Assembly (NCBI GenBank): GCA_013816265.1
Contig: JACDES010000001.1
Span: 25,636 to 89,635 of the forward strand
DNA length: 64,000 bases
Direction: 5' to 3'
Source of the DNA: Parachlamydiaceae bacterium
Lineage (GTDB): Bacteria > Chlamydiota > Chlamydiia > Chlamydiales > Parachlamydiaceae
A program made the translations under genes and the position numbers. This document shows, one piece after another, positions 19,001 through 20,216 of this stretch (its first letter is position 1; every line of letters begins with the position of its first letter). The notes under the pieces are model-generated. The model worked only from the letters and a program-made list of their open reading frames with translations. It was not told where the DNA came from and searched no databases.

Positions 19001-19628
19001 TTGTTTCATTACATATCTCGCAAGAAAGAGGGCCATCTTCATCATTATTCCAATTAATCTGTTCAAAATTTAATACCTTTGGAATGCAATTATTTTTCAA
19101 AGTCAGAATCGCTTTAATAAGAGCTGTGATTCCTGAAGCAGATCCTAAATGTCCCATATTCCCCTTAATTGTACCTATGGTTACAGGATTTCCAGACCGA
19201 TTTTCGAAAATGCTATTATAAACAGCTAATTCCATTTTATCTGTCATAGGGTCAGCAGTTCCTTGTGCTTCGATATAGTCAATGTCGTTTGGCGTTATTC
19301 CTGCTTCTTCATATGCTGAATGAATTACTTCGCGATGAGAGTTGGGGTTTGGTGCAGTCAAATACATGCTTTTGCCACCATGCTGGACACTTATGCCACT
19401 CATTACTCCATAAATATGATCATTGTCTTTAATAGCGTCTGAAAGTCTTTTTAATAGAACTAATCCTGCTCCTTCTCCGTTCAAATGCCCAGTCGCATTA
19501 ACATCGAATGGTTTCATCATATTTTCCGGAGTTAGCATCTTCAATTTTCTATTAATGATAAATGTCCATGGAGATAGTAGCACATTGACACCACCTGCTA
19601 AAGCTACATTAATTTTTTTATTTCTCAA
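16080..19628 (-). CDS. Trans-AT PKS subunit 3 (continuation of the interrupted KS): KS0(C-terminal part)-ACP | KS
   Basis: 1182-aa ORF (the track start is TTG).
- The reading frame is actually open up to 19700 and encodes '[19 protein letters not shown]' (Cys at 19668-19670), directly in frame after the TAG at 19701-19703.
- The KS lacks the HGTGT His ('IEAQGTADPMTD', Gln at 19263-19265) but keeps 'NMGHLG', so it looks like a non-elongating KS0.
- ACP Ser457 'YGIDSIL' (18258-18260).
- KS Cys709 'DTMCSSS' (17502-17504), 'EAHGTGTELGD', 'NIGHLE'.
- C-terminal docking-like tail. Confidence 0.85.
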   Translation of the reverse strand: MRNKKINVALAGGVNVLLSPWTFIINRKLKMLTPENMMKPFDVNATGHLNGEGAGLVLLKRLSDAIKDNDHIYGVMSGISVQHGGKSMYLTAPNPNSHREVIHSAYEEAGITPNDIDYIEAQGTADPMTDKMELAVYNSIFENRSGNPVTIGTIKGNMGHLGSASGITALIKAILTLKNNCIPKVLNFEQINWNNDEDGPLSCEICNETKSWIPRSINGVKKKRRIGIHNFGYGGVNGHIVLDEYAIPNMQSEKIGINILPISARTEKQLHEYVNKLLNYIKIQEYKLYDINEIRLPSLLYTLQTGKEPLKYRIAIVANNLNEFISKLELLLINKQSKSIFKSNLNISEGQFTSLNEIELLAEKWVQGKDVDWLSFYPNEKPAKIPLPSYAFEKALHVLSGYKSIQQANSSVNKINNTSSLKKNVINRLIQIYCDCTNLDYSHIDPLQSLDQYGIDSILITNMNERFSHIFGDLPKTLLFEFQTLDQLADYFLTKFEKQCMKWTNTKAELEERTLKNDNERMIKQKSDKKKENEPIAIIGISGRYPKAKNLKEYYKNLENGRNCITEIPANRWSLENFYEANKDKALKKRNSYGKWGGFLDNHDCFDPLFFNISPLEAINMDPQERQFLEVCWETLEDAGYSPEELVNKFDRDVGVFVGITKTGYELYGPDLWRSGETLHPRTSFGSVANRVSYVLNLGGPCMPIDTMCSSSLTAIHEACEHLLRDECKMAFAGGVNLYMHPSNFVELSSLQMLSTDGKCKSFGEGGNGFVPGEGVGAILLKRLSDALEDNDHIYGVIKGTSINHGGKTNGYTVPSPNAQADLVKKALDKAGLMANHLSCIEAHGTGTELGDPIEVAGLTKAFERDTQEKGFCSLGSVKTNIGHLEAAAGIAGVTKLVLQLYHKKLFPTLYAETPNSNINFAKTPFKIQNELETWNQRLETNSTGQKIELPRIGGISSFGAGGSNAHVIIEEYITTKIMRSNSGPYLILLSAKEEDVLCKKVDQLLSYLQEELTRDDSLESIAYTLQVGRKAMEFRLGFIVETREELIDKLHMFLSNKNTNNASHIYFGNVKNNKEGMSNFSNDEDFPSLIKTWLEKRKISSLAKLWVNGTSIDWNLLYIEEKPLRISLPTYPFNKERYNLPTPETKEQIELEKYEDLLDGLIEGSVSVDEALELVDIYGLR

Positions 19629-20216
19629 GGCTTGTACAGCTAAATCTAATGCAGCAAATGAACTTGAACAGGCAGTGTCGACAGCTATACTTGGTCCTTT
19701 CTAACCAAAATAATTTGATATCCTATTCACAAGCATAGAATGTGTATTTCCAGTATTCACATACCCATCAAGCTCGTTATTAGAATTTATTATTTTTTCC
19801 AAATATTCATTTTTTTCTACGCCAACAAAAAGTCCTATTTTGTTATTAAATAGAGATTTTTTTGTATATCCGCCATTTTCAATTGTTTCCCAAGCCAATT
19901 CAAGTAATATACGATGTTGAGGATCCATCAGAATGGCTTCTTTTGGGGTAATACCAAAATGGAGTGCATCAAATGCGTAAATATCATCCAAAAAAGATCC
20001 ATGATAGCAATCAGTTTTGTCATTTTCTTTAGGATCTCCAAAGTGTTTTTTCCAATCCCACCGTGACTCTGGAACCTCTTTTAATACAGATTTTTCTTGT
20101 ACCAAATAATTCCAAAAATCGTTCAAATTATTGCTTGAGGGAAATCTTCCTCCAATACCTATTATGGCAATGTCATCTTCAGATTTTTTTTGGGGTCTTT
20201 CTTCCTTCAATACTGC
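18893..20216 (-). other. KS domain (KS6, KS0-type) interrupted by an in-frame TAG at 19701-19703
   Basis: The minus-strand reading is ...[25 protein letters not shown]... Other KSs here read NRISYFFNFKGPS and ARIAYHFNLKGPA, so the stop sits at a conserved Leu/Phe position. Confidence 0.85.

What the first reader, a model, noticed from the sequence alone, without database searches (positions are those of the whole stretch)
19626..19712. Single in-frame TAG splits a KS domain 11 codons before its active-site Cys
The minus-strand reading is ...[40 protein letters not shown]...
- The stop (19701-19703) is in the same frame as both flanking ORFs.
- It sits where the sibling KS domains have Leu or Phe (NFKGPS, NLKGPA).
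- One T-to-A change of TTG would create it.
- Read through, ORFs 19701-27524 and 16080-19628 would give a single protein of ~3,814 aa.
- Known trans-AT split modules break between domains, not inside the thiolase fold.

So this is either a nonsense mutation (a cluster in early decay, plausible in a host-restricted bacterium), a sequencing or assembly error, or stop read-through. The affected KS is also a KS0 (HGTGT His replaced by Gln, 'EAQGTADP'). Losing it would cut the line after the FMO module.
Basis: seen in the sequence. Interest (0 to 1): 0.7.

Follow-up and report, generated by a model that had tools for sequence, protein, structure and literature searches.

The report
Recent nonsense mutation in chlamydial PKS
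A single G-to-A change has turned a conserved tryptophan codon into a stop codon inside one ketosynthase domain of a giant polyketide synthase in an amoeba-type chlamydia (Parachlamydiaceae), so this is most likely an ordinary, very recent gene-breaking mutation and not a new kind of gene split or recoding.

Summary
On the minus strand an in-frame TAG (19703..19701) separates ORF 19701-27524 from its continuation 16080-19700. It falls inside one ketosynthase (KS) domain, 11 codons before the active-site Cys. That KS is a non-elongating KS0 (EAQGTADP instead of HGTGT).

- **Source:** the window is a Parachlamydiaceae metagenome-assembled genome (MAG) contig. The same TAG appears in three assemblies of it.
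- **Genetic code:** TAG also ends three other ORFs in the window, and it occurs once in about 13,400 continuous PKS codons. Codon reassignment is therefore excluded.
- **Orthologue:** a syntenic cluster from another 35%-GC organism (P0129/L013) encodes the same region as one uninterrupted 7,059-aa protein. Its DNA there is TAT TTT GGT TGG AAA GGA CCA, against TAT TTT GGT TAG AAA GGA CCA here. A third, distant orthologue also has Trp.
- **No rescue:** no start codon lies between the stop and the Cys codon, and there is no read-through structure.
- **Timing:** about 21 kb of downstream PKS genes are still open, and they are as conserved as the upstream part. The lesion is therefore very recent, or those genes are still under selection.

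Verdict: a genuine, recent nonsense mutation that breaks the assembly line after the FMO module. It is ordinary biology. Read-level confirmation is still missing.

The parts
19701..19703 (-). In-frame amber stop (TAG) replacing a conserved Trp codon (TGG) of KS6
   Evidence: Searches show the sequence. One search gives the orthologue DNA, TAT TTT GGT TGG AAA GGA CCA, against TAT TTT GGT TAG AAA GGA CCA in the window. Searches give the residue at this position in homologues.
18924..20192 (-). KS6, a non-elongating ketosynthase (KS0) domain interrupted by the stop (BC residues 2445-2867)
   Evidence: blastp and MAFFT of the nine KS domains. Pfam ketoacyl-synt hits on both sides of the stop.
19668..19670 (-). 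Active-site Cys codon (TGT) of KS6, 11th codon after the stop
   Evidence: DTACSSS motif.
19263..19265 (-). Gln codon replacing the first catalytic His (EAQGTADP instead of EAHGTGT), conserved in both orthologues
   Evidence: for the window. for L001 (YIEAQGTADPSSD). for P0129 (YIEAQGTADPMTDKMEL).
19626..19628 (-). First canonical in-frame start codon (TTG) after the stop. It lies 13 codons beyond the Cys codon, so any re-initiated product lacks the catalytic Cys.
   Evidence: No ATG, GTG or TTG occurs among the 10 codons between the TAG and the Cys codon.
19701..27524 (-). PKS ORF B (2,607 aa): KS4-KR-ACP-KS5-FMO-ACP-[N-terminal 163 aa of KS6], ended by the TAG
20535..22100 (-). Module-integrated flavin monooxygenase (FMO/Ox) domain
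   Evidence: Pfam FMO-like, E 1.5e-57. Best solved structure is 8odw_A 'Polyketide synthase modules-related protein', E 3e-169.
20229..20489 (-). ACP of the FMO module, the last intact domain of truncated protein B
   Evidence: PP-binding/ACP_SdgA_C at residues 2346-2432. (GFDSM motif).
16080..19700 (-). In-frame continuation (1,206 codons): rest of KS6, then ACP, then KS7. Annotated in the MAG as hypothetical protein MBA3720785.1 starting at TTG 19628.
16737..18041 (-). KS7, with an intact Cys-His-His triad (IDTMCSSS, EAHGTGT, NIGH)
4415..14437 (-). PKS ORF D (3,340 aa): DH-KR-MT-ACP-KS8-KR-ACP-KS9-ACP-ACP. A downstream part of the same assembly line, still an open frame.
27538..38514 (-). 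PKS ORF A (3,658 aa), upstream part of the assembly line (AprA-MT2-like start, KS1-KS3, tandem ACPs)

Best explanation
A genuine point mutation (TGG to TAG, a G>A transition) converted a conserved Trp codon into an amber stop. It lies inside the non-elongating ketosynthase KS6 of a large trans-AT polyketide synthase in a Parachlamydiaceae bacterium.

**Ancestral state (shown).** The region was one polypeptide: KS4-KR-ACP-KS5-FMO-ACP-KS0-ACP-KS7. In the closest orthologue it is fused further to the next modules.

**Consequences (inferred).**
- Translation ends 11 codons before the KS0 Cys. Protein B then ends in an ACP plus a 163-aa KS stump that cannot fold.
- The remainder can only be made by re-initiation at or beyond TTG 19628. 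It therefore lacks the Cys that takes over the chain.
- The hand-over from the FMO-module ACP to the downstream modules (KS7, D, E, F) is broken.
- The full-length polyketide should be lost, or reduced to the trace allowed by natural amber leakiness or module skipping.

**Timing (inferred).** About 21 kb of downstream PKS reading frame has no second lesion and is as conserved as the upstream part. The mutation is therefore very recent, or the downstream genes are still under selection.
For: **The stop is in the assemblies.**
- TAG is in frame within one KS domain.
- The identical 2,607-aa and 1,182-aa products are found on three contigs: the NCBI MAG proteins MBA3720786/85, the GCA_020064125.1 contig, and the Logan assembly of SRR11719869.
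- The DNA at the site is identical in the two contigs read.
- GCA_020064125.1 differs from the window by one SNP elsewhere, so it is not a byte-copy.

**TAG is an ordinary terminator here.**
- It ends three other ORFs of the window: TAA 13, TGA 7, TAG 4.
- It occurs once inside about 13,400 PKS codons with continuous homology.

**Orthologues define the ancestral state.**
- P0129 (7,059 aa) aligns in one HSP with B+C (residues 3-3813, 52% identity) and then with D. It is followed by the same ACP-HMGS-ECH-ECH-PKS gene order.
- P0129 reads [24 protein letters not shown], with TGG in an otherwise identical 21-nt context.
- L001, a distant orthologue (52.6% GC), also has Trp and the same EAQGTADP motif.
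- Among 113 of the 120 best KS homologues the position is always a sense codon, mostly hydrophobic: L 89, F 20, T 2, W 1, V 1.

**No rescue is visible.**
- There is no start codon before the Cys codon.
- RNA folding is unremarkable, z = -0.36, and there is no terminator.

**The lesion is recent.**
- Identity to P0129 is 55.2% for B, 57.4% for C and 53.9% for D.
- 5.4% of possible single-base changes in C+D+E would create a stop. With none seen, fewer than about 54 neutral substitutions (<0.26%) can have accumulated.
Against: - No reads were inspected. The three assemblies may derive from the same or overlapping read sets, so a systematic error or a mixed population (TAG and TGG alleles) is not excluded. 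One G/A difference between assemblies at 28598 shows there is some heterogeneity.
- Loss of function is inferred, not shown. The intact downstream ORFs are also what one would expect if the pathway still worked through read-through, module skipping or a suppressor tRNA elsewhere in the genome.
- Only about 90 kb of the genome was accessible, and the window holds no tRNA genes.
Confidence: 0.77

Rival explanations
1. Artefact or minority allele. The organism really carries TGG, and TAG comes from a sequencing or consensus error, or from a sub-population variant chosen by the assemblers.
For: - All available copies may trace to one sample or read set (SRR11719869, GCA_020064125.1, MAG H0W88).
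- One G/A difference between the assemblies at 28598 shows either polymorphism or assembler disagreement.
- It is a single-base difference from the orthologous codon.
Against: - Three assemblies made with different pipelines agree on TAG.
- The site is not in a homopolymer or repeat.
- Illumina-type consensus errors at good coverage are rare (general knowledge; coverage not known here).
Confidence: 0.1
2. The mutation is real but the truncation is tolerated or even useful. The line now ends at the FMO module, and a shortened product is released from the last ACP of B. This would resemble the pederin and toblerol pathways, where an oxygenase-generated ester is hydrolysed to give a terminal alcohol. 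The downstream modules would then be newly superfluous.
For: - The stop lies immediately after an integrated FMO-ACP module.
- Oxygenase-generated esters are hydrolysed to give chain termini in the oocydin A, pederin and toblerol pathways (PMC7586987).
- No other lesion has yet accumulated.
Against: - The function of this FMO is untested. Integrated Ox domains have several roles, including ester insertion, epoxidation and oxime formation (PMC7586987).
- No thioesterase or hydrolase was found at the new end of B.
- The KS stump may destabilise B.
- About 21 kb or more of downstream PKS remains intact and conserved, which argues against long-standing redundancy.
Confidence: 0.08
3. Functional decoding of the TAG (programmed read-through, suppressor tRNA, pyrrolysine or codon reassignment), so that the 3,814-aa protein is still made.
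For: - The downstream frame is intact.
- The stop is followed by A (TAG-A). I recall this as not the strongest termination context in E. coli; this is unverified memory.
Against: - TAG terminates three other ORFs in the window.
- Only one internal TAG occurs in about 13,400 PKS codons.
- The orthologues have a sense codon (Trp) here, so the stop is not a conserved recoding site.
- No stable RNA structure lies downstream, z = -0.36.
- No tRNA gene is in the window.
Confidence: 0.03
4. A natural, functional split of the module into two proteins, i.e. a new protein boundary inside a KS.
For: Trans-AT PKS modules are often split between proteins. This cluster has such splits at A/B and C/D.
Against: - The boundary is inside the thiolase fold, 11 codons before the Cys.
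- There is no start codon from which a Cys-containing second half could be made.
- The closest orthologue is continuous here.
Confidence: 0.02

Closest known systems
Nonsense-mutated (pseudogenised) biosynthetic genes in host-restricted or intracellular bacteria
   Same: A single in-frame stop at a codon that is a conserved sense codon in the orthologues. It occurs in an obligate intracellular lineage with AT-rich DNA, and the G>A direction fits AT-biased mutation.
   Different: Only one lesion is present. The other roughly 21 kb or more of downstream PKS genes is intact and no less conserved than the upstream part. This is at most the very first step of decay, not an eroded cluster.
Non-elongating ketosynthases (KS0) of trans-AT PKSs
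   Same: The Cys is retained and the first catalytic His is lost (EAQGTADP). The domain sits between two ACPs with no extension-processing domains.
   Different: The His-to-Gln 'EAQGTADP' version was seen only in this protein and its two orthologues among the sequences examined. 106 other KS homologues had His. In the window the domain is also interrupted by the stop.
Oxygenase (Ox/FMO) modules of trans-AT PKSs (OocK/PedG/TobD; LbmA-Ox, LbmC-Ox; PMC7586987, PMC6174933)
   Same: An FMO-type flavoprotein integrated in a PKS module between a KS and an ACP. It is strongly similar to a PKS-derived FMO structure (8odw_A, E 3e-169).
   Different: Which oxygenase clade and which reaction (ester insertion, epoxidation or N-oxidation) was not determined here. 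The KS-FMO-ACP-KS0-ACP order was conserved in three clusters, but I did not find it described in the papers read.
Split modules of trans-AT PKSs
   Same: The assembly line is divided over several proteins.
   Different: Known splits, and the other splits in this same cluster, fall between domains. This one falls inside a domain and is absent from the orthologue.

Membership tests
Nonsense mutation / incipient pseudogene | In-frame stop at a position that is a sense codon in the orthologues, with homology continuing in the same frame on both sides | tested here: met
   P0129 and L001 have Trp at this position. The P0129 DNA has TGG in an identical 21-nt context. KS homology continues on both sides.
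Nonsense mutation / incipient pseudogene | The stop is present in the DNA of the organism, not only in one assembly | tested here: inconclusive
   Three assemblies agree, but they may share reads.
Nonsense mutation / incipient pseudogene | Signs of relaxed constraint downstream (further lesions, faster evolution) | tested here: not met
   There are no further stops in C, D or E. Identity to the orthologue is 55%, 57% and 54% for B, C and D. In the relative-rate test with L001 as outgroup, lineage-specific changes (window:P0129) are 93:77 upstream and 95:58 downstream, and these ratios are not significantly different from each other.
Stop-codon reassignment (TAG as sense) | TAG is not used as a terminator, and many in-frame TAGs occur in conserved genes | tested here: not met
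   TAG ends 3 other ORFs. There is exactly one internal TAG in the PKS reading frames A, B+C and D and none in E.
Programmed stop-codon read-through | The stop is conserved among orthologues, with a stimulatory context or structure downstream | tested here: not met
   The orthologues have TGG. The fold z-score is -0.36.
Suppressor-tRNA or pyrrolysine decoding | Presence of tRNA-CUA or pylTSBCD in the genome | not testable with these tools
   There is no tRNA in the 64-kb window. The rest of the MAG could not be fetched.
Natural split module of a trans-AT PKS | The boundary lies between folded domains, the downstream protein has its own start, and the boundary is shared by relatives | tested here: not met
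   The boundary is inside the KS, 11 codons before the Cys. The first start codon comes after the Cys. The orthologue is continuous.
trans-AT PKS | Multimodular KS/ACP proteins without integrated AT domains | tested here: met
   No Acyl_transf_1 hit in A, B, C or D. Nine KS domains with KS-linker remnants (RhiE-like, CurL-like).
trans-AT PKS | A free-standing AT encoded in the cluster | not tested
   No AT was seen in the window ORFs scanned. The remaining roughly 13-14 kb of the contig beyond the PKS genes E and F seen was not examined.
KS0 (non-elongating KS) | Loss of a catalytic His of the Cys-His-His triad, with the Cys retained | tested here: met
   DTACSSS is present, EAQGTADP shows His replaced by Gln, and NMGH is present. 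The same holds in both orthologues.
Pederin-type oxidative chain truncation | OocK/PedG-clade Baeyer-Villiger oxygenase acting on a beta-ketothioester, with hydrolysis of the ester giving the product terminus | not tested
   Only FMO family membership was shown. Clade assignment and chemistry were not determined.

The most novel reading that the evidence does not exclude
The amber codon is a snapshot of how a polyketide pathway is shortened in nature. The line is cut directly behind an oxygenase module, so the symbiont may now release a truncated, still bioactive product. This would be analogous to pederin versus onnamide-type compounds. The downstream 20 kb or more of PKS genes would have just become dispensable. 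Alternatively, the KS0 is bypassed and the pathway still runs.
Probability: 0.08. Interest if true: 0.6.

Novelty: new member of a known kind. Interest (0 to 1): 0.25.

Why it matters
For the stop codon itself, little. It is one more example of a point mutation that disables a large biosynthetic gene.

The practical consequences are these:
- Anyone mining this MAG should treat MBA3720786.1 and MBA3720785.1 as two halves of one 3,814-aa protein carrying a W2608* lesion.
- The pathway should not be assumed functional in this strain.
- For heterologous expression, use the intact orthologue (P0129/L013), or revert TAG to TGG.

The context is more interesting than the lesion. It is a trans-AT PKS of more than 60 kb with a conserved KS-FMO-ACP-KS0(EAQGTADP)-ACP arrangement, found in an amoeba-type chlamydia. 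Intact relatives exist in two other organisms.

Tried and rejected
- **Exact DNA search of GTDB species genomes** for the 53-nt site: no match.
- **Protein-guided scan of the same collection:** only distant KS relatives, at 26-40% identity.
- **JGI metagenome scan:** only 25-26% relatives.
- **Plasmid megablast:** no match.
- **First word-indexed protein search:** returned only short KS fragments and missed the 7,059-aa orthologue. That orthologue was found only by the exhaustive representative search.
- **Literature searches** for the accessions and for PDB 8ODW gave nothing usable. The identity of 8odw therefore rests only on its PDB molecule name.
- **Codon reassignment, programmed read-through and a functional split KS** were considered and rejected. 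The reasons are in the membership test.
- **TTG (Leu) as the ancestral codon** was rejected in favour of TGG, because both orthologues have Trp.
- **Relative-rate test for post-mutation relaxation:** it showed a slightly faster window lineage overall (188:135 lineage-specific changes). There is no significant extra acceleration downstream of the stop (2x2 chi-square about 1.8, hand calculation). The outgroup's KS after the KS0 module belongs to a different clade, so that part of the alignment is weak.
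Full report
**1.

On the minus strand the sequence reads ...AAT TAT TTT GGT TAG AAA GGA CCA AGT ATA GCT GTC GAC ACT GCC TGT TCA AGT TCA..., which translates as ...[18 protein letters not shown]... The TAG is at 19703..19701.

- It closes ORF 19701-27524 (2,607 aa).
- The same frame stays open down to 16080. The mechanical ORF list starts the downstream ORF at TTG 19628, giving 1,182 aa.
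- The active-site Cys codon (19670..19668) is the 11th codon after the stop.
- Pfam finds ketoacyl-synt N-terminal homology on both sides of the stop.
- An alignment of the nine KS domains of the window shows the two sides are one KS domain. I call it KS6 (BC residues 2445-2867, window 18924-20192).

KS6 has the Cys (DTACSSS) and the second His (NMGH). It has EAQGTADP where the others have EAHGTGT, so it is a non-elongating KS0. No AT domain is present in any of the four PKS ORFs, so this is a trans-AT-type PKS.

The domain order around the stop is KS5-FMO-ACP-KS6(0)-ACP-KS7. Protein D follows (DH-KR-MT-ACP-KS8-KR-ACP-KS9-ACP-ACP). Beyond the window start there are a small ACP, a 217-aa ORF, HMGS, two ECH genes and two more PKS genes of 2,438 and at least 2,321 aa.

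**2. Where the window comes from**

- The exact proteins are deposited as MBA3720780-MBA3720791, 'MAG: Parachlamydiaceae bacterium' (the one locus tag shown is H0W88_00100), on a 90,347-bp contig.
- The same proteins are on contig JAITZQ011376509.1 of GCA_020064125.1 (87 kb) and on a 69.6-kb contig of the Logan assembly of run SRR11719869.
- The Logan contig is 100% identical to the window over 27.8 kb.
- The GCA contig differs by one base at window 28598, giving S3306N in PKS A.
- All of them carry the TAG. It was read directly in two loci. It is implied for the third by the identical 2,607-aa and 1,182-aa products.

The flanks hold DUF4116-repeat proteins and many ORFs with no family match. 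This does not conflict with the chlamydial label, but I did not verify the taxonomy independently. GC content is about 34%.

**3. Is TAG a stop in this organism?**

Yes. Of the 24 ORFs of at least 150 aa, 13 end in TAA, 7 in TGA and 4 in TAG. The TAG group is three other ORFs plus ORF B. The PKS reading frames A, B+C, D and E cover about 13,400 codons with continuous homology, and they contain exactly one internal TAG. A reassigned TAG would appear many times. There is no tRNA gene in the window.

**4. What the ancestral state was**

The exhaustive search of cluster representatives with the post-stop part of KS6 found P0129, a 7,059-aa protein, as the top hit. Among all proteins fetched, P0129 is the only one besides the window's own protein that carries EAQGTADP.

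- P0129 aligns in a single HSP with B+C (residues 3-3813 against 4-3895, 52% identity).
- It continues into D (D 318-3340 against 3857-7057, 48% identity).
- Its locus is L013, JGI 3300034829 contig Ga0377247_010. It was also assembled independently from SRR12667695 as L014, which is 100% identical.
- The locus has 35% GC and the same downstream gene order: ACP, HMGS, ECH, ECH, ER-KS PKS.

This is therefore a syntenic orthologous cluster in which B, C and D are one ORF.

At the stop position P0129 reads ...[34 protein letters not shown].... Its DNA is TAT TTT GGT TGG AAA GGA CCA, against TAT TTT GGT TAG AAA GGA CCA in the window.

A third, more distant orthologue is L001/P0001 (ENA ERZ25039577, 52.6% GC).
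- It has the same KS-FMO-ACP-KS0-ACP-KS order.
- It has many frame changes, typical of a noisy long-read assembly.
- It also has Trp ([23 protein letters not shown]) and the same YIEAQGTADP motif.

In general KS homologues the position is Leu (89), Phe (20), Thr (2), Trp (1) or Val (1).

The ancestral codon in this KS0 lineage was therefore TGG, and the lesion is a G>A transition. That is the direction expected under AT-biased mutation. The conservation of the unusual EAQGTADP motif across three clusters of very different GC content also shows that KS6 is a maintained, specialised domain and not an already dead one.

**5. Can the break be bypassed?**

- None of the 10 codons between the TAG and the Cys codon is ATG, GTG or TTG.
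- The first canonical start is TTG 19628, 13 codons past the Cys. Any re-initiated product lacks the nucleophile.
- The 126 nt around and after the stop fold no better than shuffled sequence (z = -0.36). There is no terminator-like element.
- The genuine protein boundaries of this assembly line lie between domains: ACP|KS at A/B and KS|DH at C/D. A functional split inside the thiolase fold would be without precedent here, and it is absent from the orthologue.

What remains is natural amber leakiness, ACP-to-KS7 module skipping, or a suppressor tRNA elsewhere in the genome. None of these could be tested.

**6. How old is the mutation?**

- Identity to P0129 is 55.2% for B, 57.4% for C and 53.9% for D. 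There is no drop after the stop.
- KS7, KS8 and KS9 keep their catalytic residues, and the ACPs keep their Ser.
- In C+D+E (6,984 codons), 5.4% of all single-base changes would create a stop. None has occurred. If these genes had been neutral since the mutation, fewer than about 54 substitutions (<0.26% divergence, 95% bound, indels ignored) can have accumulated.

I also ran a Tajima relative-rate test with L001 as outgroup, counting changes unique to the window lineage against changes unique to the P0129 lineage.
- Upstream of the stop: 93:77.
- Downstream of the stop: 95:58.
- The window lineage is somewhat faster overall. The up- and downstream ratios do not differ significantly (2x2 chi-square about 1.8, my hand calculation), and the outgroup alignment is weak beyond KS6.

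The lesion is either very recent or the downstream genes remain under selection. 'Cluster in decay' is not demonstrated.

**7. Mechanistic reading**

Shown:
- The position and nature of the stop.
- The ancestral Trp.
- Continuity in the orthologue.
- Normal use of TAG as a terminator.

Inferred:
- Protein B now ends in the FMO-module ACP plus a 163-residue KS stump.
- The chain on that ACP can no longer be taken over by KS6.
- The downstream modules are starved, so the full-length product is lost or reduced to traces.

Module-integrated or trans-acting flavin oxygenases in trans-AT PKSs insert oxygen into the chain. The resulting esters are sometimes hydrolysed to give chain termini, as in oocydin A, pederin and toblerol (PMC7586987). 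A truncated line ending at this module could therefore conceivably still release something. This is speculation.

The reaction of this FMO was not determined. Its best solved relative is a PKS-derived FMO, 8odw_A (E 3e-169), whose literature I could not retrieve.

**8. Comparison with what is known, and novelty**

This is an ordinary nonsense mutation in a biosynthetic megasynthase gene of an obligate intracellular bacterium. It fails the tests for codon reassignment, programmed read-through and natural module splitting. Background papers report that BGCs are widespread in Chlamydiota, including Parachlamydiaceae (PMC9666466; PMC13229535). I found no description of this particular trans-AT cluster.

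The lesion deserves a low interest score. The cluster and its conserved KS-FMO-ACP-KS0 module are the more noteworthy by-product.

**9. Caveats**

- No read-level data were inspected.
- The three assemblies may not be independent.
- The taxonomy is taken from the depositor's label.

Noticed in passing
L013 784-21963 (JGI 3300034829 Ga0377247_010) and L014 (Logan SRR12667695), compared with window 4415-27524: An orthologous 35%-GC cluster encodes B+C+D as one 7,059-aa protein. The window lineage has an extra DH domain (D residues 1-317) and an opposite-strand P450 gene (14565-15812) at the C/D junction. It also has a 217-aa ORF with no family match (3444-4097). None of these is present in the orthologue.
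   Followed up: partly
window 28598: This is the only difference between the window (identical to the Logan contig) and the GCA_020064125.1 contig over 27.8 kb. It is G versus A on the minus strand and gives S3306N in PKS A. It hints at strain heterogeneity in the sample, or at assembler disagreement.
   Followed up: partly
window 18924-20192, L001 2806-4610, L013: The unusual KS0 motif YIEAQGTADP (His replaced by Gln, GT replaced by AD) is conserved in three KS-FMO-ACP-KS0-ACP clusters of very different GC content (34%, 35%, 53%). It is absent from 106 other KS homologues checked. It may mark a KS0 clade specific to this oxygenase module type.
   Followed up: partly
window 27538-38514 versus 4415-14437: The C-terminal halves of PKS A and PKS D share the same KS-KR-ACP-KS-ACP-ACP block. 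A_KS2, C_KS7 and D_KS8 are about 60% identical, and A_KS3 and D_KS9 are very similar. This suggests an internal multi-module duplication, each copy ending in tandem ACPs of the kind I recall being used for beta-branching. HMGS, three ECH genes and a free KS are present.
   Followed up: no
window 40966-45752: Two PF02458 'Transferase' (BAHD-type acyltransferase) genes flank a second P450 next to the PKS. From my own knowledge this family is mainly plant and fungal, so it would be an unusual tailoring set for a bacterial cluster.
   Followed up: no
window 56591-58102 and 58911-60947: Two proteins are built of 8-9 DUF4116 repeats. Seven other neighbouring ORFs (46281-56291 and 61606-62241) have no Pfam hit, and the six scanned against NCBIfam have no hit there either. 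These may be effector-like genes of an intracellular bacterium.
   Followed up: no
window 62570-63724: A 384-aa ORF with a weak Zeta-toxin domain hit (E 2e-8).
   Followed up: no
window 38200-38514 (N-terminus of PKS A): PKS A starts with an AprA MT2-like methyltransferase fragment followed by an ACP. This suggests an AprA- or CurA-like loading region. The hit covers only profile positions 24-136 of 268.
   Followed up: no
L001 (ENA ERZ25039577 contig_54280): The high-GC orthologous segment changes reading frame at least six times within 7.7 kb. This most likely reflects long-read indel errors, but real decay is not excluded.
   Followed up: no
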